Source: Hormiphora californensis (Eukaryota; Animalia; Ctenophora). From it: DNA of 64,000 bases. The position numbers were made by a program, and so were the translations under genes. Of the stretch, positions 18,203 through 46,057 are shown piece by piece (positions within the stretch are counted from its first letter, which is position 1; each line of letters opens with the position of its first letter). Location of the stretch: assembly GCA_020137815.1 (NCBI GenBank), contig CM035360.1, forward strand, positions 7,564,001-7,628,000. The letters are read 5' to 3'. The notes beneath the pieces were generated by a model. That model was not told the origin of the DNA and ran no database searches. It saw only the letters and a list, made by a program, of their open reading frames with translations.

Positions 18203-21200
18203 TTAGTGGAGGACCTTGGTTCGAAGTTGGAATATTCCCAGAACTAGTGCAAACAATCCAACTGTGTATACCCACATTACTGCACAGTTCCTGAAGAGAG
18301 CGGTTGTTAATTTTGGGTAAAGTAGAGTCTGAAACTTTATTTCAGGAGGCACAATTTGTTGAGTACCCCCTTAGTCACAAACTGACAACACAAGACAATG
18401 CCTCCCACCTGTCGAAGTTGTCCACTGCGTTGGGGTGGTATTGTTCCAGGTAGACATCTCCACGTGGAAATATACACAGATCACCTGAAGCAGCAAGATA
18501 CAGATATAGATAGCAAGAAGGATCATACAGCTAGGAACGATGGCTATTTCTTATCAACTAGACGAACTCTAGAAACTACAGCTCTAGAAATAAAAACACG
18601 GCTTAGTCTTGTCAGACTCTTAGTGAGGGTCTCGCGATGAAAAAGGTATGACCAGTACAAGTAGCCCAGCAAGAATCACATGCTACCTCTATGGTAAGGT
18701 GGTGCAGAAGAAGAGGGATTGTTGGGTGCAGCTCCATCTCGTGCTAGAGACACACAGACAGACGTTTAGCGTGGTGTGATATAGTGTCATTCTATTGATT
18801 TCTAGTGACCTCACCTGATTCAGTGTGTGGACAAGTCCAATTCCAATCCGTTATACTCATTCACCACAGTACAGCTCGCTGGCATACTTGTGGATCATCA
18901 GATAGGATAGTAGGTTCAAGTGCTTTGGGAAGGGACTCCACACTCCTGCAGGGGGTAGAATTAAGGGGATGTAGTGGGAAGTAGAGGGTGTTTTAAATTC
19001 CAAAGCGAAAGGAGGTTTGTTTACCTGACAAGACCGGAAGAGAGGAGACAGCTGATACTGATAAGTAGAGCACATACAGAATTAGCCAGGGTTGGATCCC
19101 CAATGAGCCCCAACATTCCGATCCCAATCAGCTCCCCTGCTAGGTGCAGGAGGAGAGAGTTGAAATAGAAGAAGACAAACCTAACAACTTGGGGGTTCAG
19201 TCCAACAGCCCTGAAACAGTCACAGATTGTAATCAAATCTAACAAATGTGCAGCAGCCAAGGGAAGTTTTTACAAAACAAATGGATTGAGGTCCTAGGGA
19301 AGGGAATATTTGAGGAACATGACCTGTATGGCGGCGCCATACCCCAGATGGGGTCGCGGCGCCAGACAGAACATGACCGAAACATGTCACTACCTACCCT
19401 TCCCCCTTACTCAACAATACCTACCAGTAGGTGAAGGTAGAGAATATGATACTAGCTAGCATTGCAAAAGGTACAATGTGTGCTATGTAGGTCAGTAGGA
19501 ACATCCAGCTACGATAGAATCCATCCCTGCTTTCCCTGTAGTACATGTCCCTCATTGCAGGGAACAGGGCTATCGCATTAAACATACCTGGAGGGAAAGG
19601 GTGGGGATTGATAGAGTGAGGGCGAGGTAGAGTGGGGTTAATGGGATGAGGGGGAACTACCAACACGTCCAATGCATAGAGGAGACACCATTGAGTGAAA
19701 TACAATCCAACCGGCGACCAGGTACCTACCAATAAATATAGGTCCACAGCTGATCTCATATAGGAACCCAACTCTATCCTGCATACTACTCTGGCTGCTA
19801 CCAATACGGAAAAAGAAGGCAAACATGAAGAAGCCAAACAGGAATAGTTGGGATAGTCGCATTGTGAGAGCCGAGGAGTCCCGAGATAGGTTTAGTTGTA
19901 GACGCTGAATCATTCGTCTCATCACCTAATGGGGGACAGTTTGGAATCTGTGAGTTGAGACGTGTGTGACAACAATGGATGGTCTTCAGAAAATATAATC
20001 CGTTTTGTTGTTCTATAGATCACTGATAAAGTGTCCCTCCCATATTTCTCCCTCCCATAATTGTACCTCGTGTTTTGATGGTTTGCTTCTAAAGAAGACA
20101 ACATTTTCCCGTGGCCCACTTTTCCAGAACTCTATTTGTTTCTTAGTTTCACTGTGTATTGCACTGGTTATGAAACCCCTCTTTAATGACTCAACGCTGT
20201 CTGTTGTCTTCAGTTGACTAGTTTCACTCCTGGAAAAAGAAGGGGACATGTGTATTAGTGTCTATGCTGGTGGATACCACCATACTAATTCTGTGACGAT
20301 GTTTTTTGATGAAGTTACCCACCTGAAGTCTATGGTGCCCAGGTCCACGAAGAAGTCCAGGGGGTTACAGTAGATGGGACAGGGGTAGCCCAGGGTGTTA
20401 AAATGTGGAACCATCTCTCTCCCCGGTCCACTGTATACCATCTCTCCAGAGGAGAGGATAGTGACACCATCAAACAGACGGAACATATCAGATCGGGGCT
20501 GAGGGAGAAGGTGGTAGAGAATGGGTCTTGAGAAGGTGATGGTGATGGTGATGGTGATGGTCTAGAAGGGGTCTTGGTTCTAGATCATGAAGCAGTTCTA
20601 GAGATCTGGTCGCCATATCATGTCAGACACATACCTGGTGAATGGTGAGAAGGATGGTAACACCATATCCAGCCAGTCTCTTCAGTAGCAGTACCAGGTT
20701 ATGGGCTGTAAAGGAATCCAGACCTGGAGGGGACAGGAGGAGTATTAATTAGGGGTATTACCCGGGGTAATTAAGGGATAGTTTGTGGGCCCAAGTTGGT
20801 AGTTTGTAACCACTGAGGGACACCATAGTAGAGGTTATTTGGTTCACCTAATCTGTGAGCTAACCAATACCTGTGGTAGGTTCATCTAATAGTAGGACAC
20901 TAGGAGCGTTAACTAACTGCACACCAATAGACACCCTCCTCCTCTCACCTCCACTAATACCCCTGTTGTGCTCATTTCCTACACGTGAATCTGCCACGTG
21001 GGATAAACCCAGTCTGTCTATCACTGTCTGTACCTGGGATGGTATTTAGGATAGAGGTGAACCATTCAGCTGCAAAATAATACACGTGCATGGTGTCCTG
21101 TGTGATCTGTGTGTCTCTATTCATATCTCACTGAGTGCTGCAGTTAGATATGGGCTAATTGCCAAAGTGTAAAATGCGAATATCACATGCGCCTTGCAAT

Positions 21201-24200
21201 TTGTCCATTTAGTCTCAAACACTGATAATCAGGTCACTGCTGTACTACTGTCAAGAACACACACAATTTGTCATCAATTGCCTGACAACTTAAGATAATT
21301 AACAGTTTTGGATAACCCCACTCACCCTCTCTTCTTTAGAACCATCGTCCTCACAAAGTGTAAAGTGAGCCACAAACATTAGTGTCTCCCAGACAGTTAG
21401 ATTTGGCAACATGTGATCGTGCTGAAAATAGGAGTCGTTAGTTTAGGGAATCATCATCATCTGGTAGTCACGCTTTACTAGGCCTCCCTTCTCTCATCTC
21501 CCAGTTGTTCTAGAGAGGACTGGTTTATGACGTCCTGAAGTTTTCCCAGTGAATCGTAAGTGTAAATTAGAGTCACGACACATAGCTCCTGTTATTCTCC
21601 CTCCCTTTGATAATGTTTTCAAGATTACGTTTCCTCTTTTTCTTTCTCTAACACAATTCTTTTATGCACACTAACTAGTAACTAAATCTCTTCTTTCCTC
21701 ACTAAGCTAAATCACTAAATTACTGCCATATATGGCATCTATATATCTCCCAGCCACAATGCTTGTTTACCCCAACACCAAGTCTCTCTGTGTTTTTAGT
21801 GTGACCTGTGTACAATGTATACACGCCCTGTCACACTGTCTTGGCCGGTTAGTGTATCACTTTAGTTCAACTTCCGACTGTAATACGCCCCTCCCACTTT
21901 CCCACCGTCAAATCTCTCTTGCGTGCCGTGTTCTTTAGTGCTTCTTCAGTGTAGTTTTATATGGAGCTCTGCGTTTCTGGCTGCGTTTTTGCAGCACAGT
22001 GTTGACAATGGAATTCAGTAATTTTAGCTCACCCTCCATTAATTGCTGAGGTAGAACAGTGGAAGAGAGAATTGAGTTTGCTGCTAAATTGTGTGTGCTA
22101 CTATTTGTAGAGTATACACAATACCAATAATACCGTGTGCTTTTTGACGGTGTATTACCATTGTGATCTGCCTGGGTCGCTAAATAGATTACACGATTTG
22201 AACTATCTAGATGGACCCACCTCTAGAGCCTCGGGGCCTAGTTCTCCTTCTAGTCAAAGTAGTTCCTATTACAAGCTATCGATATTAGAAACTTGTTATT
22301 CAATCATACAGCTGGTTTTATAATAACCCTTTTCTGTCTTTAGTTTGCTCATTGTGAAATGCCTCCTGTTATATAAGATGGAGCAACCTCCTATCCTGAA
22401 TGGAACATTTTTTAAAAAGTGCCAGGTTAGTTCATAACAACCATATTTGTCACGTGATGCCCATATATGGTGTTTGACATCATCATACCCAAATATGGTT
22501 GTTTCCAGGTTGGACTCCGCTACAAGCCTCGCTGGTGCAAGCTCTATCTGGATCGTTTAGAAGTCTACACAGAGAACGGTAGATCACACAAAGTTACTGT
22601 TCCTACTGCTGATATAGTTGTCTGTGAGAGATGTGAGGAGAGGTTGGCGGGGATGCCCGATGTGTTAGGTATAGGATACCGCAGCAAGTATGGGATCATG
22701 TACTATCTGTATCTAGCAAGTGAGGACCTAACCACTACGCTACAAGACCAGATCAGGCACCTGATGGAGGGGGACGAGAGGGTGCTGAGTCCCACCTACC
22801 ACCCTGGTGTATTCATGTCTAAACACTGGAACTGCTGTTTGAAGGAGGGAGGGGAGGACCCAGGGTGTACTAATGTCCCTGTTAACCAGTTCACCATGCT
22901 GAGGAAGATGTCTAGTAGAGGGGAGCTGCTTGGAGGGGGAGGAGGGGAGAAGAGGAGTAGGAAGGCAACACTACCTGCCCTTGAAGCACATCTATTTGAT
23001 GAGGATGGGTTGTGGTGAGAGAGAGAGATCTGTAGTACTAGAACTATACTATTACTATACTAATACAGGAAGAGGAATCAATGTTCTGGTTTTATCATTT
23101 TGGAGGTCACCAAAAGTGGCATGAATGATCTCAGGTGCAGATGAACTGAATCTTGGTTTTGTTTTAGGGAAGCCGGAAGAGGAGGGAAAGATACTAATTG
23201 TTTGTAAAAATGTTTATAACACGATGAACATTTGCTAGGAACTTTAGGTCTAGTTTGTTGAATTTTGTTTTTTAGCTGGAATACTCTTTTTAAAAAGTAA
23301 AACCTCCAATACGTGTGTTTCTCGTATTAAAATGACAGTTTATTTCAACACTATCAGGCGAGATAAAGAGTCTCCCGTTCTACTTGTTGTTATCATACCA
23401 TTTGAAACCCTACATAGCCTTAAACCTCAACCTTCAATTTACTAATCCATAAGACCCCTCGACTCTTGAACCGATCATCCCGCGGAGACAGTAAGGACAG
23501 TACCCAAGATCACCACAGTGCTCAATATTCCCGAGACACTACAATCTACAGTGTGTAGATTCTACACACAACTATAACACACCTGTAAGACGTAGCCACT
23601 GTTGTGTTTGATCATGCTAGGGGTACACTCAGTTCCATTTAGTAGAATGTCACCAGTAACATCAGATCCAGAGATACTTCTATTACTTAACACATCCAGT
23701 AGGGAGGTCTTACCTGAACCTAGTTGAGGGAGAAATATTATTAGGATAAGTTAGAGGTCCAAAGGGAGTGGGGAGAGAGAGATTGGGGATATGGGCAAGA
23801 GTGGGAAGGAGTATGAAACGAGAGAATCTGAGATGTGAGGGGGAGTAGAACGATCGTGACCCATTATATTTTAGTACCTGAGTTACCCATGATTGCCATT
23901 AAAGTCCCATCAGGGACATGCAGGGTAACCTTACTTAGAATATTCCTCTTTTCACATCTCAACCTGGAAATGGAGATTGCCATGGTGACGAGATATGCTA
24001 GCTACCATATATCGCGCATGAGAGGAGATATGAGACAAAATGTTACCAAATATGGTCACACTGAATACGCAATCTTACCTCCATGATGGTGCTGTAGGGA
24101 CGGAGTAAGAGAGGGCATCTACAGAGAGGGACTTCCTGGTTACTACATAGGGAGCAAAGTCACCATCATCTTCTTCTGGAGGCTTCTCATAAAACTAGGA

Positions 24201-24333
24201 ACAAAGGAAGGGAGGGTGTCATGTTGAACTAGGGGAGAGGGGGAGAGGGAAGAGAGGGGGAGTGTTCAAACAGTCCAGATTCGGCTTAACTCACCTCGTA
24301 TAGATACTGGTCCTCTCCAGATTTCATTCCCAT
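18203..24333 (-). CDS. ABCG half-transporter, ABCG5/ABCG8-like (~15 exons; indels in exon ~18815-18946)
   Basis: Walker [13 protein letters not shown], signature [15 protein letters not shown], Walker [52 protein letters not shown]...MFNAIALFP. Confidence 0.92.
22378..23018 (+). CDS. Stand-alone PH domain + Btk zinc-motif protein (~185 aa), nested antisense in ABCG intron; exons 22378-22425,22509-23018
   Basis: [11 protein letters not shown]|[13 protein letters not shown] (PH strands 1-2) and [14 protein letters not shown]...PGC (Btk motif); in-frame 83-nt intron. Confidence 0.8.
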
Positions 24334-24693
24334 TACACTAATAAAGCCATTCTGCTAAACAAAGTTAAAACTTACAAGTTAGTTATTTACAGGGGAATAC
24401 TAAAAACGTTGGGGTTCCGGGTTGATCATGTGGTGGGGGGGGGGGTCTGGGTTAGGATAGGTCATGAATAACACAGGTGATTTCTGTAAAGTCCCTCATT
24501 TGATGTCTTACAAAACACTTGTTGAGTAAGGAATAACAACCATTCCTTACTAAACACAAACAACAAACCAACATACAAACTAACACGACAAAACACAATT
24601 ACAGAAGTCCCTAATAACTGACACGTGACAAATTCTATAGTCCACAATAATAAGGTCCAAACCCGAACCCAAAAAAGAACGTCATCCAGTGGT

Positions 24694-27600
24694 TTAATTG
24701 TTGGACTGTTCAGCAGGTCTAGTATAGACAGGACACGCCCCATTAAGTACTGTATCACTGGTTATTAGCACATGAGATATATCAGATCCGGGTACCTCAA
24801 ACATGGCCTCCAATAGTGTCGTCTCTACTATAGACTTGAGAGCTCTGGCACCTAGGTTAGGGGGATACATCATGGTGAGTGGTGAAATCAAACTATTGCT
24901 GGAATTGAACCAGTGACAATCGAATGCCGGACTGCCCCCAGGCCCCATCACAAATACAGAAATCCAGAAAATGAGTATGTAACCCAATCTTCTCCCCACT
25001 CTACCTGTCTTTTTGCAGAATGCCATCTCGGCAATGGCTGCCAGGGCATCCTCTGTGAACTCAAGCTGGCAGTTATTGAGGGACATCAGATCGGTTAGCT
25101 GTGAGATGACCCCCCTCTCTTTATCCTTTGCTATCACCATGAGATCGTGCTGTGGGAGGAGGGTGGGTTATTGTCTTGCTCGACCCTCTCTCCATGTCCC
25201 CAGTAGTAACACAGAGCACTAGTAACTAGGGGTGCTACTAGTAGTAACACTAAAAGGTACCTTAGTAAGGGAGTGGAGGGTGGTAAGGATGGGGATCCTG
25301 CCTGCTAACTCTGGTATCATACCATAATCCAGGACATCTTTCGGTTCAACCTGTCGGTGCAGAATCAGGGGGTGAAGAGAGAAATCATATTTTAGGAGTA
25401 GAAGATACGCCTAATCTAGGAACATCTCTACCCTATAGTGAGAGACAGTATATCTTAGGTACCTGGTCTAGTAGTGCATCCCGTGCTTTGTTCTTCTCTT
25501 CAGTCTCCTTTATCTTTGCTAACCTCTCCGTTCTCTCTGTATCATCCAATGTTTCACCTGATAAAGTGAGAAAGGAACACCTTTTTAGCTGTGAAATCCT
25601 ATTCAGGTCGATTTTTGATCCACCGAAATAAAATGCGTGTGATCCACACAAGTCTACTTCTAGAAACTAACCGAATGATGATGAGAGAGGTCTCTTTCCA
25701 GGGGGAGGAAGAGAGGAGGTGGCGGGGGTTCCAAAACCAAGAGATTTACTGGATGTTCTTCTTTTGACTATCTGGTCCAGCCCTATAAAGGCTCCAGATG
25801 CCAAAAACAGGATATTACGGGTATCAATCTGGAGAAATAAAGGATGATTAGTAATTGGTTAGTGCAATAAGTTCTGCTAGAGCTGTTAGTTAGGAACACA
25901 AGATGACCACAACTACTAATGAAAGGACTAGTTCATGAACTAGATACCTGATGACTCTTGTTCTTTGCTTTATCGTTCACAGTAACTTTAGTACCCTCTA
26001 TAATCTTCAGGAGACTCTGTTGTACCCCCTCCCCACCAATATCCTTACCACCGTGCTTGTTCCTCTTACTTGCCAACTTGTCAAGCTGTTAGGATACAAA
26101 TGTTAGGAATAGGAGGATTTGTAATAGCATAGGCAGAGGTACAAATATCAGCAAATCAGGTGAAGGGAAGAATGGGAAGATAGTGAGTGGTATGGGTTTC
26201 ATGATACCACATCGACCATTAATAAAGTCCCTGTCTCCTGCTTACCTCATCTAGTACAATGATTCCCTGTTCAGTTCTCTCCACACTCTGACCTGCTGTC
26301 TGCCACAACCTCATTATCACACTATCAACATCCTCACCTGATAGAGAGGGATATTATTGTGAAGGGTTTAGGGTAGTAGCGGGTCTGTTCGGCACTTTAA
26401 GTGCCTTCGGCCCGGTGTGAGAGCTGACAGACGAGGAACATGTCAAGGAGACATGGGAACGATAGAATCCAGGAACAACAATGTGTCCACCCCGTCCCCA
26501 CCTACCCACATATCCAGCCTGGGTAAGTGAGGTACAGTCACACACCACCATTGGTACATCTAGTAGCTTGGCTGCCATCTGGTACAGATACGTCTTACCT
26601 GGACAGTGGTTCTTGGTTAGTTAGTTCTGGGTTAGTTACTGATTAGTTGCCACGGTAACAAGGTAAGCTTTGAAAGTAACTCGATCTACACTCGAGTCTC
26701 GACACGACCCAAAGTGGAGGGTTTGTGATTCACATGCAGTACATACCACATCCAGTAGGCCCTATAACTAGGATGTTGCTCTTGTCTAGTCGGGGTGTAT
26801 CTTCACTAGACCCCTCAGGAGTTGTCAGAGCGTGGAGTCTCTTGTAGTGGTTATACACTGCTACTGACAGAATCTTCTTAGCTTTATCCTGACCTTGTAC
26901 AAACCTAGTGGGGGTAGAAGGATTAGAGATGAGAGGCCCCCCCCCCCCCGATGAGAGGGTGAAAAGGTCAAGAGAGTCTAGAAGAATTACTTGACTCTAA
27001 CCTGTCCAAGTACTCTACAATTTCTCTGGGTGGTGGCGCCCTTCCCAGACTGTTCTTCTCCATAACATCCTCAGGGTCAGAGGGTTCCTCGTAAGGAGGT
27101 GCAAACAACCTTCCTAGCCTTTTATCATCTATACTCTTTATATCACCTGGGGGGTGGTAACTTGGTTAGTATGACACAGTGATAGACGACATGAGTATAA
27201 TAGTGAGACAAACAGGAAAATGATAGTGTCAGGGCCCCTTACCCCTGGCGAGATCTTCCAGGAATGCCTCAGTAAGATCAGGATGTTCATCAACCTTTGG
27301 ATTGTGTAGTACAGTCAACAGACTATCACACTTGTGACACCTGAAGGGGTGTTAGGGATGTGTGTCAGGGAGTGATTTGGGGGTTCACTTTTATACTTGA
27401 ACTGTTGAGAGAGAGTGTGAACACCACAGCTTTAGATAATACCTGATATGCCGTTTGGTTCCAGAGAATTTGCAGTAGAACATTATTAGAGAGTTACACT
27501 TTGGGCAGCTGAATTTAACTTTGTCACCTCCCCTGCCCCCTCCTCCCTGCCGGGGCATTGCCAGCGCTGCACTGAACTGCACATCCCGCTGTAAACTGAA

Positions 27601-27743
27601 ATAGTGGGGTCACGTGACATGCCCATATATGAAAGTGAGGAATACCAAATATGGGATGTAACTCACCATATCTGTTGTCTGGGTTTTTGAAGTCTGGCAA
27701 GGTTGGGGACATGGCGTCTCACACTGGATAATGTCCTATGCAT
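24694..27743 (-). CDS. CLPX: Mitochondrial ClpX AAA+ unfoldase
   Basis: Arg-rich presequence [30 protein letters not shown] zinc site, [61 protein letters not shown]. Confidence 0.96.
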
Positions 27744-27869: not shown

Positions 27870-29954
27870 TTATCGTCGATATGAAGATCTTCCTCGTCCG
27901 CCAGCCATGTGTGTCTTTCCCTGGTAACTATGGTTACCGCCCTGGTTACCATGGTTACCACTATCTCTCTGATCTTGGCGGCTGTCCATCTGCCTATAAC
28001 TAACCCGATCTTGCTCAAACTGATCATCATAGTTCCTCTGATCTCTGTCAAAGTTCCAACGCTCGTACTGTTGCTGGGGTCGGTCGTTACCACGTGTCTT
28101 GCCACGTGAGTTGTTGTAACCCCTGGTGTCACGTGACTCTGAGTTGTTGTAACCCCTGGTGTCACGTGACTGTGAGTTGTTGTAACCCCGAGTCCTGTTG
28201 TCACGATCATTTCTATCACCTTGGTAACCCCCACCCCCTCCACCTTGATTATTATACCGCCGATCCTCATACCCCTGATTCTGCCGCTGGTTCTGCCTAT
28301 CTTCGTATCTCTGTTCATACCGCTGACTGGACCTCTCCTCATGTCGTTGGTTGTATCTCCCATCATCTCTAGACCTATAACTGTTCTCAAATTGACGTGA
28401 ATCCTGTCTTCTCTCAGGCCGTGAGTCACTATTATTATCCTGCCTCCTGTAATTACTACTACCAGCACTGCCCCCAGTATAACCACCAGCACTGCTTCCA
28501 GAGTAACCACTAGCACTGCCACCACTATTTCCCAAACTGAGTTGAGCCATGGCACTACTAGCACCATCATCATCATCATAAAGGAGGTGATCGTGGACCT
28601 CAAACCCGTCCTCGTCAACCTCAGGGGGGTAGGAAGGAGCAGCACTATAGGAATTAGGAGCAGCATTATAGGAAATAGGAGCAGCATGGTGGGATGAACC
28701 AGAACGGGATGGTGGAGGGTGGGAGGGAGTAACGAATATGGGGGCAAACCCATCATCTGGAGGCCCTGAATCAGGTGGTGCAGTAGGTTTGGGACCTCCT
28801 AGTTCAGGGAAATCCATATCACTGGCTTTGAAGGGTTTGCTGTGTTGTACTGGTGGTGGTTGGTAACTACCCCTCCTACCTCTCCTACCTCTGTCTCTTG
28901 TAGTTGAATCTCGAGAAGGTTTCTCATACATGGCTAGATCAGGGTCCTGACCCCTTCTTCCCCTCCCTCCCCTTGAATCATCATCATCTCCACGATCAGG
29001 GCGATCACCCCGGTCCCTCTTTCCTCTACCTCCGCGAGAATCTCCACGCCCTCTACTGCTGCCTCCACGAGAATCTCTGGAACCCCTACTACCTCCTCGG
29101 GAGCCTCCCCGGGAATCTCCTCCTCTTCCCCGGGAATAGTTTTCTCGCCCTCCACGGTTACTACTGCTGTGTTCAGTATCACGGTTACCATAGTTACCAC
29201 GGTTATCCTCTTTATGGTTACCATGGTTACCTGCACTTTCCTCACTACGATCTGTATCCCGTCTATTCCCTCTATCTGATGATCTACTACCTCGGTAAGA
29301 GTCCCCTCCACGACCCCTCTTGCCTCCCCTCCTCTCTGTCTCCCCTATTGGCTGGTTCTTCTTCCCTGGCCTTGGCTTCTCCTCCCTCACCGGCAGCTCC
29401 TCCTCTGTCTCCCTAGTAACCACTGGTTTTACTAAAGCAGGTGCTTTACCTGACCCAAATGGTACAAATTTAGGGGGTCCACCCACTCCATCCCCACCCT
29501 TCCTCTTAGTAATCCCTTCATTCTTCTCTATATTCTCAACCAGTCTCTCTACTCTCCCTCCCAGGATCTCACAATTACTGGGTGTCAGAAGTAGGAACCC
29601 GCCCAACACCTGGACAGTCCCGGTTAGTCTCACCTTGGTACCAGGGTAACACTTCCCACTGAGGTTCTGGATCGGTGCCAGATTCATTGCAGCACACGTT
29701 GTATGTCCGTCACTGAGCGTCAACCTGAACATGCTCTTAGCTGAGCCATTCTCAGTGCTAATCTTTGTGTGACTGACATCCTTCAATTTCTTGATTTGAA
29801 CTATCTTGGGCCCGGTTATTGTTGGGATGGAGGGTAGATCAGCAGGGATCCATTTCTCTCCAATATGGTGCAGATCTGTATCAAGGAGTTCAGAGTGTGA
29901 TTTCCCTGATACTGAGGGGAGGAGTAGCCATCCCTCAGCGGATAGAGGTTTCAT
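27870..29954 (-). CDS. TDRD3-like protein: N-terminal RMI1/TDRD3 OB-fold plus long RGG and Y/Q/N/G-rich disordered tail; single exon
   Basis: DLHHIG..LP, GPKIVQI, MFRLTLSDGHTTC, PGTKVRL, GFLLL..N.EILGGRVERL match the TDRD3/RMI1 OB-fold; 694-aa ORF. Confidence 0.8.
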   Translation of the reverse strand: MKPLSAEGWLLLPSVSGKSHSELLDTDLHHIGEKWIPADLPSIPTITGPKIVQIKKLKDVSHTKISTENGSAKSMFRLTLSDGHTTCAAMNLAPIQNLSGKCYPGTKVRLTGTVQVLGGFLLLTPSNCEILGGRVERLVENIEKNEGITKRKGGDGVGGPPKFVPFGSGKAPALVKPVVTRETEEELPVREEKPRPGKKNQPIGETERRGGKRGRGGDSYRGSRSSDRGNRRDTDRSEESAGNHGNHKEDNRGNYGNRDTEHSSSNRGGRENYSRGRGGDSRGGSRGGSRGSRDSRGGSSRGRGDSRGGRGKRDRGDRPDRGDDDDSRGGRGRRGQDPDLAMYEKPSRDSTTRDRGRRGRRGSYQPPPVQHSKPFKASDMDFPELGGPKPTAPPDSGPPDDGFAPIFVTPSHPPPSRSGSSHHAAPISYNAAPNSYSAAPSYPPEVDEDGFEVHDHLLYDDDDGASSAMAQLSLGNSGGSASGYSGSSAGGYTGGSAGSSNYRRQDNNSDSRPERRQDSRQFENSYRSRDDGRYNQRHEERSSQRYEQRYEDRQNQRQNQGYEDRRYNNQGGGGGGYQGDRNDRDNRTRGYNNSQSRDTRGYNNSESRDTRGYNNSRGKTRGNDRPQQQYERWNFDRDQRNYDDQFEQDRVSYRQMDSRQDQRDSGNHGNQGGNHSYQGKTHMAGGRGRSSYRR

Positions 29955-30132: not shown

Positions 30133-30979
30133 TCAGCTTCCAGAAGGCTCCCCTCCACATGTTTCACTGATCCAGTCCAGGTAGGGCTTGCTTCCATCTG
30201 ATATCTCTGTCTGGATCACCTGTGGGAGGTGAGACTAGATAACAGTTGGATGTGGGGCTGACAACATAACCAGTTACAAAATTGGAAACCGATATCAGTA
30301 TCCTGGTGCCAAATGACACTTGTCGTGCTGACACTGCGTGCGGCGCTTACTTTCAATGCAAATCACATCGAAATTCCTGCTAGTAATCGAAAATGTCGTG
30401 CGCAGCATGGTTCATCAGGAGTCTCCCAGCTAGATACTGGCGTCAGTTTCCTGCAACCTGGTGTCAGTTTCCAATCTGCAACTGGAGCGTTACACACATT
30501 TAGACTTCTGATCTACCTACCTCGACACAATCGTACGGGTGATTTCCCTTCACGTATTCAGTCAACTCAACAAACTTCTCCTTTGTAGATTTTATCATCA
30601 TCAGAACCTGGTAATTAGACACAGCTGGATGACAATGCACTCTTCATCTCTCTATCTACCATGACACCCCCTCTCTCCCTCCCTCTACAATGATTTAGAA
30701 TACTCACCTCACTGTCTTCCTCCATCTTCCCTTCCCACTCGTAGTAGGATGTTACCCCAGGTACAACGTTAACACACGCTGCCAACTTCTTACCCAGCAA
30801 CCCCTGCAGACGGGGAAGGGGTGTTAGTTGGGAGGTTGGTCAGGGAAGGATACGCTGGAAGGGATCTGGTAAGTGGTAGTTGCAGAGATCGGCCGATCGG
30901 GGAAGGAGGTTACCTGAGCGAGAGATTTGGCGACTTCTTTACTTGGTGCAGTTACAAATACTGCACAATACCTTGCCAT
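30133..30979 (-). CDS. CUTA: CutA divalent cation tolerance protein, 4 exons
   Basis: [66 protein letters not shown]. Confidence 0.95.
30270..30485. mobile_element. Degenerate MITE in CUTA intron
   Basis: ccagttacaaaattggaaaccgatatca vs reverse complement of the right end ccagttgcagattggaaactgacacca. Confidence 0.5.
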
Positions 30980-31257: not shown

Positions 31258-33589
31258 TCACTTTTTCCACTTGTCAGGTGCATTAAAACTCGTCATCCCC
31301 TTACCAGCGATCCCACACGTTCCAATACCAATCTTGCCCTCAAAGTTATCAGGAGATGCGAAGATACTTTTCTTAGCTGCTGTCTTGGTGATTGTCTTGT
31401 TAGTATTCATGAATTTTAACCAGTTGCCCTTCTCTTTCTCTTTAGCTTGTTCCATCTCTGTCTGGTGTTGCTTCCTGGATTGCTTCTTTTTCTTCTTTCG
31501 CTCTTTTTCAACCGCCGTCAGCTGCCGTTTTGCTCTGGAAAAGGAAGGATCAGAATGTGTCGAGTAGAAACATGTTGAAGGAACAAAAAAGAAAAAACAT
31601 CGTCACAACAAGATGACCAAACAAATTTTAAAACCTTGACACTTTTACTTACTCGTATGGGGAAGGTGCTACAATTGCTTCTCCCCATCTCCTCTTCTTT
31701 ATTTTCCTTACATTAGACAGCTGAAAATTATCAGAAAATTATATCTGAGGGGCACGGAGATATTGAATTGCTTGAAACTCGATAGATAATCTCATATTCC
31801 ATTATCTTACCGCAACGTTAGCAATTGAGCCAAGATCCATAAACCGGACCTGTACATAACCCTCTCCTGTAGCGAGAATCTCTGCATCTGCAAACCTGGG
31901 GGAGTGGGGAACTTGTTTACAACACCATCAACACAGATTTCCTGGTGCGGGATAGAAGATTTCTGATTTCTGAATGAGGCCTGCCACCTGAGGTACTCAC
32001 TGGTTTGTTTCGGGGTTTGTAGCCTGACATCTATCTCCAACCTTCCAATCAATAGCCATCAACTTGAGCTCTTGGAGGTGTTGCTAGAGAGAGAGTTAGG
32101 TTAGGATATTTAAACATGTAGTTAATTACATATCGTATTCTTGATTGTTTGATCAAATTTACCCTGAAAATCCTTTCCTTCTCGTCGATGATGTCCACCT
32201 TCCCTGTTGAGTCCAAGATCCGACCCTTCCCCAGACTATTGGTTATTGTCACCTAGGAGAAAGAGCTGTAGAGAACGAGAAAGAGAGCAGATACAGGTAA
32301 AATACGAAACTATCCAGTTCTCAAAGGGGGACCCACCTTAGTATCATCGAACTTGCTAAACTTCCCAACTCCAGCACCACCAGCAGGGGCAGCACTAGTT
32401 GAGGCAGCAGTGGCAGGTACTGTCTCCTCCTCTTCTACTGCAGGTGCAGAAGGGGCCTCCTCAGGTACATCAGGGGTTACAGGGGCTGCTGTACTAGGAG
32501 CCATCTTCACATCATCGTCATCATCATACAAGGAGAACACTTTATTTCCCTGTGTGTGGGAGATAAATATAGATATTCGTGGAAACTGCGTCATGTGTGT
32601 GAGGTGTAAAATCTAATCACTGTTTTAATATACACACATTTGATGATGAAGAAGGTCCCAGTTCATCAGCAGCTGCAGCTGGTTTATTTGATGATAGTCC
32701 CAGTAGATCTTCTGTTAGTGTGATGATATCCTGAAAGGAAGGAGATGTGGGGTTATAGTTTGAGGACAACCTGGTTGACTGCTAATAGTATCTTAGTTCT
32801 AAAACCATCCCAACTGTAACAGAAGCCCCTTCGCCAACAGAACTGAAAACACATGAAACTCCCCTCTCTCCAACAGAATACAAGAAGTTCCCCCTTCTCT
32901 CCAACAGAATAGATGAAACTCCCCCCTTCTCTCCACTACACACGTGAGGATGACAATTCCACAGTAGTGTACAATGTGATGTGCTGTTTAATATCAGGGC
33001 AGTTAGCTGAGGGGGACGCGCGTGAGGCCAGTGCTGGGGAACACTTTGCACAAGAAACGGAGCACCGCGCGTGCGCTACAAGGGGAGAGAAATGGAGCTC
33101 CTCTCGGCGATATTTGTATTTGTGTGTCGTGTGAGTACTGACTCAACTGAGTCGTGAGAGTGTCTCTCTCAGTTCAGTGAGATTATTAACATAGATTGCA
33201 GAGAGATAGAGAGTTTCTTAACTCATAATGCAGTAGTGGGAGACAGAAGTCAAGAGACCGTGTTTTTAACAGCACCATAAGTCAATGATCAATGACGAAT
33301 GACGGTAGACCAATTTCCCCGACAACAGATAAAAACACATGTTCTATGTTTACTAGAACAAACTTGGTACCAACCCTCCCTCTCACAACTTAAACAACAC
33401 AAAACAGGGGGGGGGTTGAATATCCACCATTAAAGAACAACCACCCTTCCCTCAGTTAGGTTTATCACTAACCACAAGATCCTGTTTCAGTTTCAGTAAC
33501 TCCTCATTGTCTGGATCTCCTACCAGGGCAGCCTCTACCTGCTCTAGTTGTACACGATACGTCTGGAGGTCTGCAGACTCATCTGACAT
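31258..33589 (-). CDS. SMNDC1: Survival motor neuron domain-containing splicing factor SPF30
   Basis: LQTYRVQLEQVEAALVGDPDNEELLKLKQDL, Tudor start WKVGDRC, C-terminal KKSIFASPD..GKIGIGTCG. Confidence 0.93.
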
Positions 33590-37221: not shown

Positions 37222-38224
37222 CTAATCCACTACTGAACTCCAGAACAATCTAAATATCTCAGGTAGTTTATTGATATCAGGTACAATATCATAACTCCCA
37301 TTAGTCCGTCCAAACACAGATACCCTCTCCTCAATCACAGTCTGTTCATCGATCAGCAGATCAAATGGGATTCCCAACATACCACTCTCAATCTGACTCT
37401 CAAACACTCTAGCAATGACACCATTAGAATTGAGGGCTGCACAGATCCGGTCACTAAGAGCTGACACATCCTCATTCCCAGGATCACATTTCACTACTGC
37501 AACGTGACACGGCGCTATCCGGGGATGGAAGGCGGAGAACCGGGGAGGAGTGTCGTGGAGGAATTTATCAAGTGTTATAGCAAGATACCAGTGAGTTAGG
37601 AAGTTAGTTGTTTGGAGAACTGAGGTGTGTTCATGTTTCATAAATCTTGTTTCTTGTAGTGGGATTGTAAACCCATCCTCCAAACTGTACACTATCTTAT
37701 AAACGTTACTATTAGGGGATTTAACTTGATAAAAGTCCGATTTAAAGTGAGCAATGAATTTAAAGAACCGCTCATATTTGCTAAACATGTCTTTCCGCTG
37801 ATCGAACTCCAAGTACCCAGCATGGGTAACAAAGTTGTTATAAAACCGTAACGTGTGGAGTAGTTTATCCTCGGTAAATCCAAGCCGCGAGATATCATAC
37901 ATTCCATCACAGCATTCAGTGTCCTCTAACTCTGCACACGCTGAACAAGCCTTACTGACGTAGTCCGTATAGACAGGCATTGGTTTGATGTAGCTAACTG
38001 CCCTGTTGTTAGACTCCTTTACCAACCCCTCATACCCATCAGTAGCAGGGTCAGTGTCAGGGGGTTCCATGTAGAGAGAGTGGGATCTGTGGCAGTCCCT
38101 GACCCAGGCGTGTTCCAAGTTCCGGAGGATGGATGTACCATTGTGGGGCAGGTACCGGGCTGTAGGGAGAGGGCAGGAATCCTAGCTTTGTCAGGTGTTG
38201 GACTAGCGCCGGACTAAACTTCAT
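37222..38224 (-). CDS. Divergent class IIa aaRS-like protein, probably DNA polymerase gamma accessory subunit (POLG2-like); frameshift or short intron near 38165
   Basis: NGTSILRNLEHAW resembles class II motif 1; FHPRIAPCHVAV...ALNSNGV...LGIPFDLLIDEQT is a Gly/His/Pro/Thr-type anticodon-binding domain; no catalytic motif 2/3 seen. Confidence 0.6.
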
Positions 38225-38493: not shown

Positions 38494-41400
38494 TTATTCA
38501 GGAATAAGAGCTAAACTGGGAGTAGCATCTACCATCTCCCACCTCTCGTCTCCCTGACAGATCTTGTACTTCCCAGCAGGTAGATCCACTGGCTTACCTG
38601 ATAAGGGGGAGGGGGACGAGTTAGTTGATGACAAAATAGTGGGACAACGGTGGGACAATAGTGCAAGTGGGACAAACTACTAACTATTGTAAAGCACAGA
38701 GAGTTGATATATGTTCTCTGACCTGTAATAAGGGGGTATGATTTCCCTCCCTCACCACAATCCACAATACTCCACACTTCAAACCCATTACCAGTAGTCC
38801 TGGTGATCGTAAATGATCCTGAACAGATAGAGAGAGTGGGAGTTATCGAGTAATGAAGGGAGAAATAAATCGTGAAAATCAGGGGGTTTTGTGAGGTTTC
38901 AGATCTTGTACCCGGTAAAGTACCTTGACAACCCACGTACCTTCTTTGACGGTGATATTGTACCTCTCCCCATGGTACACTACACCAGTATAACTAGTAG
39001 AGGTACACCCTGGTAGTAGGTGAGGTGAGAGGTACATGACACTCTCCTCCACCCTCACCCCCAGGTACCCATGTACCAGGGATTGTAGGAACCCTCCTAC
39101 AGCTGTTAGGAAGTTAGTACACCCAACATACTCTGGGTACTCGTTCCACACCTACATTTCGGGGAGGGGTTGGATCAAAATACCACTTACAGTTTGATAT
39201 TTTCATTAGAAATGTAATTATTGTTGGGGAGTCACAGATCTTGTTCTGTCCTAAAGATCTAACCTTGAAAGGTGCTCGGAGGTTCTTGAACTGAATCTGG
39301 AAGAGCTGACCTGCAGTTGTCTCATCTCCCAGTTCTAACATCCCCACACTGTACATGGAATATGTCATACCTGGTCCTGAAAAAGAGGGGATGAGTGGGA
39401 TTATACCCGGTCCTAGAGTAGGAGTAGAGGTTTGGTATTCACATTTATAAAGGAGAAACTTTACTTAGCCCTGAGGGCCTGGTTAATTCACCCTCCTTCG
39501 TTATTTGATAGCTGTAAGACTAACACTACAGTAACTAAAGTGTGTTACCTTTATCAGTACACTTCTCATAGACAGTAATATCGTTCCTCCTAACATCGTC
39601 AGGCATGGTAACACCTAGAGGGTACCCCATTAGTACCACAGAGGCCTGCTTGATCAGGGTACCCTGGGTGTATCCATCGAACTCAGGGTGGTACCTGGGA
39701 GAGATGAGGGAGAAGGGGGTTACAGATCTGAGTGGGGGTTAGGTAGATCACCTGTTATATGGGGGAGTAGTTAGTACTAGAAGGGGTTACAGATCTGTGG
39801 GGGTAGATCACATGCATAGTAGGTGGACGTGACGTGGTGCATGGTTAGTACTAGAAGAAAAATAGCTGTTCTCTGTAGTTTAGTGAGTTAGAGACGTTTG
39901 TTTGAGAAAATAGAGATATATCTTGGTAATTACGTACCTAAGTTGTTTATCGAAAGGTATCTTTATTCTATCCACAACTGACACCCATCGTGGATCAGGG
40001 GTTTTATCCAACTTCCCCGCTGCTTCAATCGCAAATTCTAGATTTAGTCGAGCAGCACTGATGGGGGAAATGAATATTCAGATTACTGGATAAGAGTAAT
40101 CAAGCGTTCAGATAGTGGTGTAAGTTGGTTGACACCCTCCAGTAATTACTAATTAGACCTCACCTGTTAGTGAATGCTGAGTTGTTGACCCTCGCATGAT
40201 ACTCATCAGGGATCCATTACATTATCAATAACAAACACACCTCCCTCCTCTCTCCACTGTACCCTACTGGTCCAGAAGTCAGCAGTCTCTCTGACCACCT
40301 CCCAAGCCCCATCCTCAGTCAACAGCCCCCACCCTCCAGTCCCATAACAATACTGCCTCATAGCATACACCACACATGCAGTTATATGCTGCTGATTATC
40401 TGCATATATCTTCCCTGGACACACATCCACCCCAGTCCTCCCACTCTCCCAGGGATACATGGCACCCATGTAGCCAGCTGCACGAGCCTTGGTTCGTGCC
40501 CCTGGCAGCATGGCTATACGGTACAAGATGGACTGTCTGACGAGGGAGGGGAAGAGGGCGAGAACCCCTGGTAACATCCATAGATCCTGATCCCAGAACA
40601 CGTGGCCCCAGTAATCCTGGTTATCTCCACCGTTACCTGGGGGGATTAGATTGTTATATCAGATGTCTGGTATAGAGGGAGATCGAATTTCCAGTGTTTT
40701 TTATGAAAAAGACATTTAAGGGTACGCTAACCAAAAATTTTTTTCGAGTGCAGGGAAATCTCTCACCGTAGGGTTGTAGGCCATGCCAAGGAGACCTCAA
40801 ATATGCAATTTGAGCTCTCAAGTCGAATTCATATTTTTGCTACAGCTGCTTGAAAAATGAACTGAAAATAAGTTTTTGGCATCTCAAAAAATTTTATTCA
40901 AAGATAGGAGCATGAAAATTTGGGGATTTGAAGAGGACATGAAGGTGAATAACCACAAAAATTTTTTTTGCAATCCGAGCTGATTTCCGGTCCTGAGATG
41001 GATTTCTTTTTTTCCACTTTAACGCCCTATTTGGCAAAGTTCCGAAAACATGTGAAAGCTGTAAATTGGTGAAAAGTTGCGTCTAACGATTATCTAAGTG
41101 GCCATAAATTTTGGGCGTGTCCTTATTTGAGATAAGCTGTACGGAGTTTTTTTTGTGAAAGCCGTCATTTCAGAAATAAATAAATTCCCTGTATCTCAAA
41201 AACGGCTGATCGTAGAGACCTGAGACTATGCTTAAACGATTCAGAAGGTCCGATTTTGGGGGGGGTCTTCTGAGAGACATTTTGCTCCTACTTCAACCGT
41301 TTTTGCTGTAATTGCGAAAAACAATAACCCATCTTCGCCATCGTGGATTTTTTGTGATTTTGTTTTTGATGATTATAGGGACCCATATGGACCAAATAGT

Positions 41401-42963
41401 GAAGGAATTAGCTTGTTAAACATTTTTCCATAGTTTCGGTCCTTCCTTAGCTAAAATTCCCTAATTACAGGATATTGGAGTTTAGCTTTTGCCCTTTTCA
41501 TAGAATTTGTTTTTCGCAATTACAGCAAAAACGGTTGAAGTAGGAGCAAAATGTCTCTCAGAAGACCCCCCCAAAATCGGACCTTCTGAATCGTTTAAGC
41601 ATAGTCTCAGGTCTCTACGATCAGCCGTTTTTGAGATACAGGGAATTTATTTATTTCTGAAATGACGGATTTCACAAAAAAAATTCTGTACAGCTTATCT
41701 CAAATAAGGACACGCCCAAAATTTATGGCCACTTAGATAATCGTTAGACGCAACTTTTCAACAATTTACAGCTTTCACATGTTTTCGGAACTTTGCCAAA
41801 TAGGGCGTTAAAGTGGAAAAAAAGAAATCCATCTCAGGACCGGAAATCAGCTCGGATTGCAAAAAAAATTTTTGTGGTTATTCACCTTCATGTCCTCTTC
41901 AAATCCCCAAATTTTCATGCTCCTATCTTTGAAAAAAATTTTTTGAGATGCCAAAAACTTATTTTCAGTTCATTTTTCAAGCAGCTGTAGCAAAAATATG
42001 AATTCGACTTGAGAGCTCAAATTGCATATTTGAGGTCTCCTTGGCATGGCCTACAACCCTACGGTGAGAGATTTCCCTGCACTCGAAAAAAATTTTTGGT
42101 TAGCGTACCCTTAAATGGGGAGCGTAGAGACAGTACGAACAGTTCAAGGAGAAATCTACTCACCAAGACTACCAGGGCTGACTCCAAAGAATGTAAAGGG
42201 ATAGTTATCCAAGGTAGGTATCTCCAGTGCAAAATGTGGGAAGGAAGCAAGGAGATAGTAGAGGGATGACTTGATAGTCTGGTTCAGATCGTCATCACCA
42301 TTAGCATCAATACCCACAGTATCCCATACCCATTTCCAGGATTCAGTATGAGTTGAGAACAACTCCCCCTTCTTTGCATACCCTAGTGCGAGGTTGTAGA
42401 ACGTCACAGCCTCCTCTAGATTCTCTCCAAATGCCGCCAGATACAGGTAACTCCCCGCAGTTAGAGTGACTGGGAAGGCAGTACTCACATACGCCACAGT
42501 TAGGTGAGGAGCAGTATCTGTTTCTGGTGCATTTATCTGGGCACTAAACTTCACCACTTCACCCTCCATCTCCATGAATGTGGTGGTGAGATCATCACTA
42601 TCAGGACCATGATGGCTCTCCAGCCCCACATCCCCTCCATTAACTGTGATCTCTGTTACAAGGACCCGGTTTAGGACAGAGTGAGCGTAGGAGCGCTGAG
42701 TAAAGTTACCTCCCGTAATAGTGTAGGTGCCTTCCTTACAGTTGAGGGTGTAACCAGTGATGCTAGCACTACTGCTGACATAAGGGAAGGGGACAGGGGA
42801 CTCTGGCTCGGTGACAGGCAGTAGTGTGGCCATTATAGAGGCCGTTTATATGGACAGTGTTACCATGGAGACGATGACCCAGGAACGCGTTGGAGAGGAT
42901 GGGGTTGTTGTTGGGGTTGGAGGGGAGGGACGGTGAGGTTAGGATGTAGGGATCACCCGACAT
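38494..42963 (-). CDS. PGGHG: GH65 glycoside hydrolase, PGGHG/ATHL1-like (frameshift near 42785)
   Basis: NGLYNG...HRARVP, YWGHVFWDQDLWMLP, GAMYPWESG, QQHITA, IKQASVVLMGYPL, GPGMTYSM, NFLTAVGGFLQ. Confidence 0.9.
40720..42110. mobile_element. Non-autonomous foldback DNA transposon, ~600-bp TIRs, TTAA TSD, GG termini (Kolobok-like)
   Basis: 40720-41324 is the near-perfect reverse complement of 41507-42110; ttaa at 40716-40719 and 42111-42114. Confidence 0.92.
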
Positions 42964-43298
42964 ACTTTCCTGGAGAAATGATGGGTTTATTAGGAGGGGT
43001 TCATTAGGGGAAGTATTGGAGATAGTGCACAACAAAACTCACATGATTTGGTAAAAAAGTATAGCAAGCAATAATACAATTTATAAAACTCCGAAACAAA
43101 CAACCACCAAACGTCAACTTCCATTAAAAACAAATAAACACCTTGATACAGGGTTTATAAAACCCAGCTAAGATTTAGCATTATTCATTCTTTTTCAATA
43201 AAGGTTTTTTAAACAAAACACTATTCCCAATGTTATTCATCACAGCATGTATTCTCTCCAGTATTCGATAAAACACGACTATAGCCAATATCTCAGTA

Positions 43299-44579
43299 CT
43301 AAACGTTCATGTTGGGTAGGGCGTGTTGGTTGTTTTGTAACACATGAGGTGAGGGACGGGACTGTTTAAAGAAATACATGAGGGGAGTATTACCTAGTTT
43401 ATCCTGTGCATTAGGAGACAGCCCATTCTCAATCAGCAGCCTCAATATTTCACTGTTGGGTGCATGTATCACACTAAGGTGGAGAAGATTCCTACCATGA
43501 TCATCTACCTTCTCAAAATCAAATATCTCCCGGTCCATTAGGAATCTTATACCCACAACATTCTGATGTCTCACAGCACAATCCAACAGTGACTCACCCC
43601 TCCTGTTCTTGTGGTGTAGCAACTCTGGTACCTTGTTCTCAATGTACTTGTACAATTGTACAAAAGTAGAGGTCTCCTCGCTCTCACAGTAGGGTTGGAG
43701 ACTAAAGAATATGGGGGGATCACCTCTCTGTGACAAAACGGTGACGTCTCCCCCATTCTGTAGCAACTTATCAACCTTGTAGGTGTCCCCTCTCATCGCT
43801 GATATGTGCAGGGGAGACCAGCCGTGAACGTTAACTATGTTAACTTGTAGATCTTTAACACTGAGTAGAGTATCAAACATGATGTGTGATACAGACAGAC
43901 ACGCTTGGTGGATAACAGCCTCTTGTAACACACAGCATGTCGTGTTAACATCGGCACCCAGGTCAATTAATAGCCGAACTGAGAGGGCGTCCTGGTTAGC
44001 TACTGCCAGAAAGAGTGGTGTCTCCCCATATGAGTTAGCACGGTTCACATCAAACCCTGTGGAAAAGAGAAAGTTGAAACGGGGGAAAATGTCATTACAA
44101 ACAAGGGAAACTTGAAACGGAGGAGAGATGTTTGCATACCTATTTTAACTAGACGACGAATAACTGATGACAGGATTGGAAGGCCATCATGCCGTTGTCT
44201 TCGTCTGTAATCGTTGAATGACAAACACAGATAGTTTAGCAAAGGGCAGTTTTCATTGTTAGCCTTCACTTTCAACCATTCTTGTACCACAGGCTGAAAC
44301 ATGGTGTGTGTGATTAACGCGTTATAACAGGTATTGAGAGGCAGTACCAGGTGGTTCCATGAGTCCTACCTCATTAATCCTTTCCTCCACTCTATCTATC
44401 AGGTAGTCAATGATTGACCGCTGCCTGTAGTAACATGCCATCATCAGATAAGTTTCTTTATCGTTGAAAATCTTCAACCACCCATCATTTTCGAAGACAG
44501 ACTTCACGAACGGTAACTCTCCGTCCCTGATTCGGTCTCGTGTGAGCAAATATTGCTGCTCCTCTGGTGTGAATGCCAT
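43299..44579 (-). CDS. Ankyrin-repeat protein, exons ~44350-44579 and 43299-44057
   Basis: GETPLFLAV, GWSPLHISA, GESLLDCAV, GRNLLHLSV, GNTPLMY. Confidence 0.88.
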
Positions 44580-46037: not shown

Positions 46038-46057
46038 AGCTTACCAGACGTCATCAA

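What the first reader, a model, noticed from the sequence alone, without database searches (positions are those of the whole stretch)
18203..44579. Nine-gene, 26-kb candidate operon resolved by SL trans-splicing
Seen: ankyrin, PGGHG, POLG2-like, ZF, SMNDC1, CUTA, TDRD3-like, CLPX and ABCG are all on the minus strand. Stop-to-start gaps are 335, 269, 241, 693, 278, 178, 126 and 360 bp. Each ATG follows a pyrimidine tract + AG at 2, 6, 8, 9, 2, 1, 12, 2 and 18 nt, mostly with a CTAAC/CTAAT branch motif, and the spacers are U/GU-rich. 126 bp leaves little room for a 3' UTR, promoter, exon and intron. Known: nematode and tunicate operons look like this and are enriched in mitochondrial and RNA-processing genes. 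Inference: one polycistronic unit driven from ~46.3 kb. Caveat: a GTGAGT donor at ~43040 could make the PGGHG acceptor cis.
Basis: partly seen in the sequence, partly recalled or inferred. Interest (0 to 1): 0.85.

Follow-up and report, generated by a model that had tools for sequence, protein, structure and literature searches.

The report
Likely comb-jelly operon with leader retrocopy
Nine unrelated genes of a comb jelly lie head-to-tail only 126-693 bases apart, and seven carry a clear splice-acceptor just before their start, so most are likely copied as one long RNA and cut into single messages by leader splicing, a gene arrangement known from worms and sea squirts that is untested here by RNA data.

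Summary
The nine minus-strand genes, all eight gaps and all nine AG-to-ATG distances are exactly as stated. Seven acceptors (PGGHG to CLPX) score like real intron ends and share a branch motif at -21 to -25; those of ankyrin and ABCG do not beat background. Six of eight spacers hold no real-strength donor, and none is CpG-rich apart from three CpGs in the shortest. So leader trans-splicing is likely; co-transcription is plausible but not shown. The head-to-head gene RPL19 has the same acceptor, so acceptors alone do not mark operons. No RNA of this species was listed. The scan noted leader-capped retroelements before on other DNA of this genome. SMNDC1 and TDRD3 appear linked in Bolinopsis too, against a background of 2 of 6 pairs. 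I recall, unverified, that the 2014 Pleurobrachia genome paper already reported operons of up to nine genes. Verdict: likely operon core, ends uncertain, known kind.

The parts
43299..44579 (-). Gene 1, ankyrin-repeat protein; weak pre-ATG acceptor (first exon base 44581)
   Evidence: Ank_2 E 8.7e-21; score -0.3, no branch motif
38494..42963 (-). Gene 2, PGGHG/GH65 glycosidase; strong acceptor (first exon base 42969); possible cis donor at 43042
   Evidence: Glyco_hydro_65m E 2.4e-30; 17.7
37222..38224 (-). Gene 3, POLG2-like (weak name), intronless; strong acceptor (38232)
   Evidence: 17.5; P. bachei record P0001 99% identical with the same first residue
34283..36980 (-). Gene 4, C2H2 zinc-finger protein; strong acceptor (36989)
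   Evidence: zf-H2C2_2 E 3e-20; 14.7
31258..33589 (-). Gene 5, SMNDC1/SPF30; acceptor 33591 after the longest spacer (693 nt)
   Evidence: 10.0; Bolinopsis RefSeq name
30133..30979 (-). Gene 6, CUTA; acceptor 30980
   Evidence: CutA1 E 5.3e-11; 6.9; P. bachei record P0010 joins SMNDC1 to this acceptor
27870..29954 (-). Gene 7, TDRD3-like, intronless; acceptor 29966
   Evidence: OB-fold E 8.7e-20; 10.0
24694..27743 (-). Gene 8, CLPX-like (name from recalled motifs); acceptor 27745 after a 126-nt spacer without a usable donor
   Evidence: (6.4)
18203..24333 (-). Gene 9, ABCG transporter; weak acceptor, with an upstream ATG at 24350 giving a 5-codon frame
   Evidence: ABC_tran E 1.9e-11; 0.1
22378..23018 (+). 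Nested antisense two-exon gene (PH-like N-terminus by recall, BTK motif) in ABCG intron 4; acceptor-like site 34 nt before its ATG
   Evidence: BTK E 5.5e-9; score 8.0
46058..46101 (-). Genomic copy of the spliced leader; no donor at its 3' end; a good donor 13 nt further on (46044)
   Evidence: 43 of 44 nt equal to the leader printed in PMC8527503, compared by eye; only copy in the window; donor scores -3.5 and 8.4
44825..46101 (-). Likely retrocopy: leader, 20 nt, intronless frameshifted ORF (194-aa piece and 167-aa RRM-like piece), six AAT repeats, G6 run on each side, inside a 25-bp inverted repeat
46102..46620 (.). CpG peak of the window (40 CpG, o/e 1.89, 11 CGCG); candidate promoter or loop anchor, partly an inverted-repeat element
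40713..42117 (.). Foldback element with 552-nt arms in PGGHG intron 1
47943..50448 (+). RPL19, head-to-head with the array; same type of acceptor 2 nt before its ATG (control)
   Evidence: (7.0)

Best explanation
Nine genes lie head-to-tail on one strand, and the seven from PGGHG to CLPX likely receive the spliced leader at the acceptor just before their start codon and are likely co-transcribed, in one unit or in two split at the 693-nt spacer. Shown: gene layout, gaps, acceptor and branch motifs, scarcity of donors and CpG in the spacers, one CpG peak upstream. Inferred: RNA polymerase II starts upstream (the CpG peak at 46.1-46.6 kb is the best candidate), each upstream mRNA is 3'-cleaved in the U/GU-rich first part of the spacer, and the uncapped downstream RNA is rescued by leader addition at the branch-plus-acceptor in the last 45 nt of the spacer. 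Ankyrin may be the non-trans-spliced or weakly spliced first gene, and ABCG may or may not belong. The leader copy at 46.1 kb is likely the 5' end of a trans-spliced RNA copied back into DNA, not a leader-RNA gene; it records that this leader is spliced 20 nt before an ATG in this organism.
For: Gaps exact, median 273.5 nt; 7 of 8 are shorter than the 417-nt Hydra RFC140-flp spacer shown to be promoterless and operonic (PMC3273482 passages) and lie in the 103-749 bp range of Trichinella downstream operon genes, not the 1297-3211 bp of its monocistronic genes (PMC7668243 passages). The local head-to-head gap is 3363 nt, about 2090 without the insertion. 7 of 9 acceptors in the real range, branch motif enriched over cis introns. 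Best spacer donor at or below the 8th percentile of real donors in 6 of 8 spacers; in TDRD3-CLPX it would give a 62-nt intron, shorter than any of 61. Spacer CpG o/e 0.40, like short introns 0.39, against 1.89 upstream. First residues of POLG2-like and TDRD3 homologues map to the same ATGs, and the SMNDC1 homologue aligns from residue 2 just behind it, so no coding exon is missing there. Leader on 56% of Hormiphora Iso-Seq reads. Bolinopsis TDRD3 and SMNDC1 are XP_063691050.1 and XP_063691054.1, both on a 20.8-Mb contig. P. bachei record P0010 has SMNDC1 joined to CUTA exon 1 at the same acceptor.
Against: No read or contig shows a leader at any acceptor or a bridge across any spacer. RPL19, the nested gene and an isolated plus-strand gene have equal acceptors (7.0, 8.0, 7.0), so trans-splicing is general and says little about operons. 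Ankyrin and ABCG acceptors are at background level. Real-like donors exist in two spacers (7.6 and 6.9) and in the last coding stretch of four upstream genes (7.9-8.8). CGCG clusters also occur inside introns, and the ctenophore GC-rich motif marks intronic enhancers too (PMC12221973 section 9), so the CpG peak is not a proven promoter. The nested antisense gene needs its own transcription inside the unit and shows no CpG peak (o/e 0.54), so promoters can be invisible to this test. Linkage in Bolinopsis is modest evidence: 2 of 6 close Hormiphora pairs also stayed neighbours in a sample of 65 rows. A 332-nt tandem gap occurs elsewhere in the window. No enrichment of the nematode Ur motif (2 of 8 spacers, 13 of 51 introns).
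Confidence: 0.55

Rival explanations
1. Compact but separate genes: each gene has its own short promoter in the spacer or inside the upstream gene's 3' end, makes a short outron and is trans-spliced as a single-gene RNA.
For: Acceptors of the same kind at genes that cannot be downstream operon members (RPL19). The nested gene shows a promoter without CpG mark. In Ciona and Oikopleura one leader serves both operon and single genes (PMC7986045 passages). The 693-nt spacer has ample room.
Against: After removing the branch tract only 79 nt (TDRD3-CLPX) and 121 nt (CUTA-TDRD3) remain for a 3' UTR plus promoter; the one head-to-head gap is about 2.1 kb net.
Confidence: 0.3
2. Ordinary cis-splicing: each acceptor ends a 5'-UTR intron whose donor lies in the spacer or in the tail of the upstream gene, so no leader is involved at these sites; some RNAs would be read-through fusions.
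For: Donor at 43042 fits PGGHG; strong donors in the last coding stretch of PGGHG, ZF, SMNDC1, TDRD3; P0010 is an SMNDC1-CUTA in-frame join, though it may be only a gene prediction (its source could not be read).
Against: Spacer donors are no denser than decoys inside introns (2.0 vs 2.9 per kb at score 4.7); the leader is on at least 56% of full-length reads in Hormiphora.
Confidence: 0.08
3. Shared first exon in cis: the promoter at 46.3 kb reads through the leader copy, and the donor 13 nt behind it is joined in cis to alternative downstream acceptors, as the adenovirus major late leader is (recalled analogy).
For: The only leader copy in 64 kb sits on the right strand 1.5 kb before gene 1; the donor at 46044 is the best in 2 kb upstream of ankyrin (8.4, 61st percentile) and its ATG would be in frame with the ankyrin ATG (one chance in three). 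Schultz et al. saw gene clusters sharing a leader exon, and took it for a mapping effect.
Against: No donor at the leader's own end (score -3.5), so plain leader junctions cannot come from this copy; the copy has the marks of a late insertion (tail, flanking G runs, interrupted inverted repeat); skipping whole genes over 20 kb would be needed.
Confidence: 0.05

Closest known systems
Hydra RFC140-flp bicistronic operon (PMC3273482, passages seen)
   Same: Unrelated genes, spacer of a few hundred nt with T-rich stretch, pyrimidine tract and trans-splice AG; non-bilaterian animal.
   Different: Shown by reporter tests there, untested here; two genes there, up to nine here.
Chaetognath (Paraspadella gotoi) operons (PMC12460157, passages seen)
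   Same: About half of genes trans-spliced, no operon-specific leader found, longest operon nine genes of housekeeping type.
   Different: Defined there by gene gaps under 250 bp plus leader reads; here only 3 of 8 stop-to-start gaps are under 250 and there are no reads.
C. elegans and Trichinella SL2 operons (PMC7668243, PMC7986045, passages seen)
   Same: Stop-to-start distances of 100-750 bp, U-rich spacer, acceptor close to ATG.
   Different: Ur motif not enriched here; no second, operon-specific leader known to me or testable; AATAAA not visible.
Operons reported for Pleurobrachia bachei in Moroz et al. 2014, Nature 510:109 (recalled; paper not held)
   Same: As I recall it: trans-splicing leaders, more than 400 operons, up to nine genes. 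Same family of animals.
   Different: I could not read it, so neither the claim nor whether this cluster is listed was checked.
[quoted passage not shown]
   Same: A leader copy lies upstream of a co-directional cluster, exactly the layout described.
   Different: Here the copy lacks a terminal donor and heads a likely retrocopy, which supports the authors' mapping-artefact reading and suggests what such copies are.

Membership tests
SL-resolved eukaryotic operon | Adjacent genes on one strand with short spacers | tested here: met
   Nine genes, 126-693 nt; one nested antisense gene inside
SL-resolved eukaryotic operon | Organism has SL trans-splicing | tested here: met
   Window proteins 96-99% identical to P. 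bachei records; published Hormiphora leader present in the window at the head of an intronless copy
SL-resolved eukaryotic operon | Unpaired 3' splice site before each downstream gene | tested here: inconclusive
   Acceptor in the real range for 7 of 8 downstream genes, not ABCG; unpaired within the spacer for 6 of 8, but donors exist in upstream coding tails
SL-resolved eukaryotic operon | Leader joined to downstream mRNAs | not testable with these tools
   No RNA holder listed; the one run laid is a distant relative
SL-resolved eukaryotic operon | One promoter, polycistronic precursor, promoterless spacers | tested here: inconclusive
   Only indirect: CpG o/e 0.40 in spacers vs 1.89 upstream; no start-site or nascent RNA data
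SL-resolved eukaryotic operon | 3'-end signal of the upstream gene close to the acceptor | tested here: inconclusive
   AATAAA 1 observed vs 1.35 in shuffles; also absent behind PAPSS and RPL19, so the signal is not recognisable here
Nematode SL2-type operon | Ur element (TAYYTT) within 100 nt of the acceptor | tested here: not met
   2 of 8 spacers vs 13 of 51 introns, p = 1
Nematode SL2-type operon | Operon-specific leader RNA | not testable with these tools
   No leader RNA genes or reads at hand
SL RNA gene (for the copy at 46101-46058) | GT donor directly after the leader and an Sm-like site behind it | tested here: not met
   Donor score -3.5; no RAT(3-6)G within 150 nt; no Rfam match in 17500-48000
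Retroposed trans-spliced RNA / non-autonomous LINE-like element | Leader at the 5' end, no introns, simple-repeat tail, flanking direct repeat | tested here: met
   Leader + 20 nt + ORF, six AAT repeats, G6 each side, inverted repeat interrupted; the direct repeat is only a G run
Retroposed trans-spliced RNA / non-autonomous LINE-like element | LINE ORF1-type protein (coiled coil + RRM) | tested here: inconclusive
   No Pfam or PDB sequence hit; model pLDDT 47 with RRM-type best match Z 6.2, rmsd 2.8, 76 aligned, below the diagnostic range; the label is a recalled resemblance

The most novel reading that the evidence does not exclude
Leader-capped retrocopies land at the heads of comb-jelly operons and feed back on them: read from the upstream promoter, this copy supplies a leader-bearing first exon in cis through its internal donor, in frame with gene 1, so one locus mixes cis and trans leader addition, and some of the published 'shared first exons' are real.
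Probability: 0.07. Interest if true: 0.8.

Novelty: new member of a known kind. Interest (0 to 1): 0.45.

Why it matters
[quoted passage not shown] Promoter and enhancer maps of ctenophores, which assign a promoter to each annotated gene start, would then need re-reading, and short spacers would give a bicistronic tool for ctenophore transgenics. The 126- and 178-nt spacers are ready test pieces. The leader copy shows how to sort the 718 genomic leader copies into leader genes and retrocopies and gives a 13-base tag that tells cis from trans origin. The gain is smaller if, as I recall, operons were already announced for Pleurobrachia in 2014.

Tried and rejected
No whole genome is held, so no genome-wide spacer distribution, no count of leader or retrocopy copies. 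No RNA holder was listed. Metagenome scans with TDRD3 and Bolinopsis SMNDC1 found no locus; the leader had no exact match in viral contigs. POLG2-like homologues from other ctenophores carried no accessions, and only one Mnemiopsis locus tag (TDRD3) was obtained, so no Mnemiopsis synteny. Gene names and recalled human identifiers gave no row in the Schultz 2023 table. The Atlas gave no answer for the retrocopy protein. Poly(A) signals were uninformative. Rfam found nothing in 17500-48000. The automatic gene finder called false introns and was replaced by hand curation. Rejected: the same-strand run as evidence; the leader copy as a leader-RNA gene; the acceptors as operon markers. Derelle 2010, Moroz 2014 and Sebe-Pedros 2018 were not held. 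Searches listed no paper whose title or abstract start reports nuclear operons in ctenophores; 'operon' does not occur in the main text of PMC8527503, PMC12221973, PMC11184263 or PMC11797021. This is not evidence of absence from print, given the three papers I could not read.
Full report
What I checked. I read the window, fixed starts and stops and curated exon models by hand, all 61 introns GT-AG, the shortest 71 nt. The nine genes and the gaps 335, 269, 241, 693, 278, 178, 126 and 360 nt are exactly as reported. Pfam supports ankyrin, GH65 glycosidase, C2H2 fingers, CutA, the TDRD3 OB-fold and the ABC domain. SMNDC1 and TDRD3 take their names from Bolinopsis RefSeq records. POLG2-like has only a sub-threshold hit, and CLPX rests on motifs I recall. 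Four models need frame changes; the P. bachei POLG2-like record is intact there, which points to assembly indels. The animal is a comb jelly close to Pleurobrachia bachei (99% and 96% protein identity).

The acceptors. A matrix from the 61 introns scores the sites before PGGHG, POLG2-like, ZF, SMNDC1, CUTA, TDRD3 and CLPX at 6.4-17.7, within the real range; 6.9% of 868 background ATGs reach the real 10th percentile. Ankyrin and ABCG score -0.3 and 0.1, which a fifth of background ATGs reach. The ABCG site also leaves an upstream ATG with a five-codon frame. The seven good sites carry CTAAY 21-25 nt upstream, more regularly than cis introns (7 of 9 against 16 of 61, p = 0.004). The ATGs are not hand-picked for POLG2-like, TDRD3 and SMNDC1: homologues begin there. 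So these are real splice acceptors in the 5' UTR position.

Are they unpaired? Within the spacers, donors are no denser than decoys inside introns, and in six of eight the best is at or below the 8th percentile of real donors; in the 126-nt spacer it would give a 62-nt intron. Against this reading, four upstream genes have strong donors in their last coding stretch, so sequence cannot exclude a cis partner. In Hormiphora the leader is on 56% of Iso-Seq reads, a lower bound (PMC8527503, passages). Leader addition at these seven sites is therefore likely; I put it near 0.85.

Does that make an operon? Not by itself. RPL19, which faces away from the array, scores 7.0 with the same branch motif; the nested gene and a separate plus-strand gene score 8.0 and 7.0. 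A same-strand run of nine is expected about 28 times by chance. The case rests on space and marks. After the branch tract, 79 and 121 nt remain in the two shortest spacers for a 3' UTR and a promoter, while the one head-to-head gap is about 2.1 kb net (a single comparison). Seven of eight spacers are shorter than the Hydra spacer shown to lack a promoter (PMC3273482, passages) and match Trichinella downstream operon genes (PMC7668243, passages). Spacer CpG (31 in 2480 nt, o/e 0.40) equals that of short introns (0.39), whereas 46102-46620 has o/e 1.89 and lies in the top 500-nt windows of the 64 kb. But CGCG clusters occur in introns too, the ctenophore GC motif also marks intronic enhancers (PMC12221973, section 9), and the nested gene must be transcribed without such a peak. 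AATAAA and the nematode Ur motif are uninformative or not enriched.

Conservation. Bolinopsis TDRD3 and SMNDC1 have accessions four apart on the same 20.8-Mb contig, which suggests linkage over 160-260 million years between lineages said to lack gene-order conservation (PMC10232365, passages). Two cautions come from that paper's supplementary file 4, of which I read 65 of 1,274 rows of sheet 10. Of six Hormiphora pairs at most four gene numbers apart with both Bolinopsis entries, two stayed neighbours (both directly adjacent pairs; none of four at distance 2-4); two further pairs were dropped because one entry was empty. And near RefSeq numbers are not always neighbours (one pair 3 apart lay 98 kb apart, one pair 10 apart lay 6.6 Mb apart). 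The P. bachei record P0010 runs from SMNDC1 into CUTA exon 1 through the same acceptor: order and acceptor are conserved there, but it ends in what looks like intron read-through and is probably a prediction; its source could not be read.

First, 46101-46058 (minus strand) equals the published Hormiphora leader at 43 of 44 positions (by eye) and is the only copy in the window. It has no donor at its end and no Sm-like site, so it is not a leader-RNA gene. It is followed after 20 nt by an intronless, once-frameshifted ORF, six AAT repeats, and G6 on both flanks, and it splits a 25-bp inverted repeat: the anatomy of a trans-spliced RNA copied back into DNA. The ORF has no Pfam or PDB sequence hit, and a low-confidence model resembles RRM domains; 'LINE ORF1-like' is my recollection. 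The insertion lies between the CpG peak and gene 1. It explains why aligners would give this cluster a 'shared first exon', as Schultz et al. suspected. A good donor 13 nt behind the leader, in frame with ankyrin, leaves a small chance of real cis use, testable by those 13 bases. Second, a plus-strand two-exon gene with a BTK motif (E 5.5e-9) lies in ABCG intron 4; nested genes are common in Hormiphora.

RNA. No holder was listed, and the one run laid is a distant relative; nothing follows from it.

Comparison and novelty. It works like the single-leader operons of tunicates, chaetognaths (longest nine genes; PMC12460157, passages) and Hydra, not like SL2 operons. Membership is open on the two defining tests, leader reads and a shared precursor. 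My searches listed no paper reporting ctenophore nuclear operons (listings only, plus passages of PMC6005172, PMC4824033, PMC3795323, PMC10282587, PMC7986045, PMC4997694, PMC11184263, PMC11797021), but the three most relevant papers were not held, and I recall that Moroz et al. 2014 reported more than 400 operons of up to nine genes in P. bachei. I hold that recollection about three-quarters likely and mark novelty down for it.

Verdict. Observation confirmed with two omissions. Trans-splicing likely, operon core PGGHG-CLPX 0.55, separate compact genes 0.3, all nine strictly from one promoter at 46.3 kb about 0.25. New member of a known kind; interest 0.45.

Noticed in passing
window 44825-46101 (-): Leader-capped, intronless ORF with AAT tail and G-run flanks inside a short inverted-repeat element; suggests that many of the 718 published genomic leader copies are retrocopies.
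   Followed up: partly
window 22378-23018 (+): Small two-exon gene with BTK motif nested antisense in ABCG intron 4; no visible promoter mark.
   Followed up: partly
window 31261 to 30980 (-): A weak donor in the last SMNDC1 codon joins in frame to the CUTA acceptor; the P. bachei record P0010 shows this join (prediction or read-through unknown).
   Followed up: partly
window 40713-42117: Foldback element with 552-nt arms, 99% complementary, in PGGHG intron 1; smaller palindromes at 1724-1999, 4999-5126, 52959-53085 and near 16040-16540.
   Followed up: no
window 167-4360 (+): 3' part of a PAPS synthase gene (name from recalled motifs), followed by a U-rich stretch and an acceptor-like site near 4655 with no gene that I identified.
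   Followed up: no
window 14440-17596 (+): Exons of a gene rich in tyrosine motifs, adaptor-like by recall, ending 606 nt from the ABCG stop; no Pfam hit in three pieces scanned.
   Followed up: partly
window 54914-60864 (+): Three tandem plus-strand genes with gaps of 947 and 332 nt: a long charged repeat protein, a related short protein, and a PAN-domain protein; a second candidate cluster.
   Followed up: no
window 9150-10450: Homopolymer-rich, error-like sequence, probably poorly polished assembly; frame changes in four of the nine genes point the same way.
   Followed up: no
3' flanks of ABCG, PAPSS, RPL19 and the spacers: AATAAA is nearly absent behind stop codons, so this animal may use another 3'-end signal.
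   Followed up: partly
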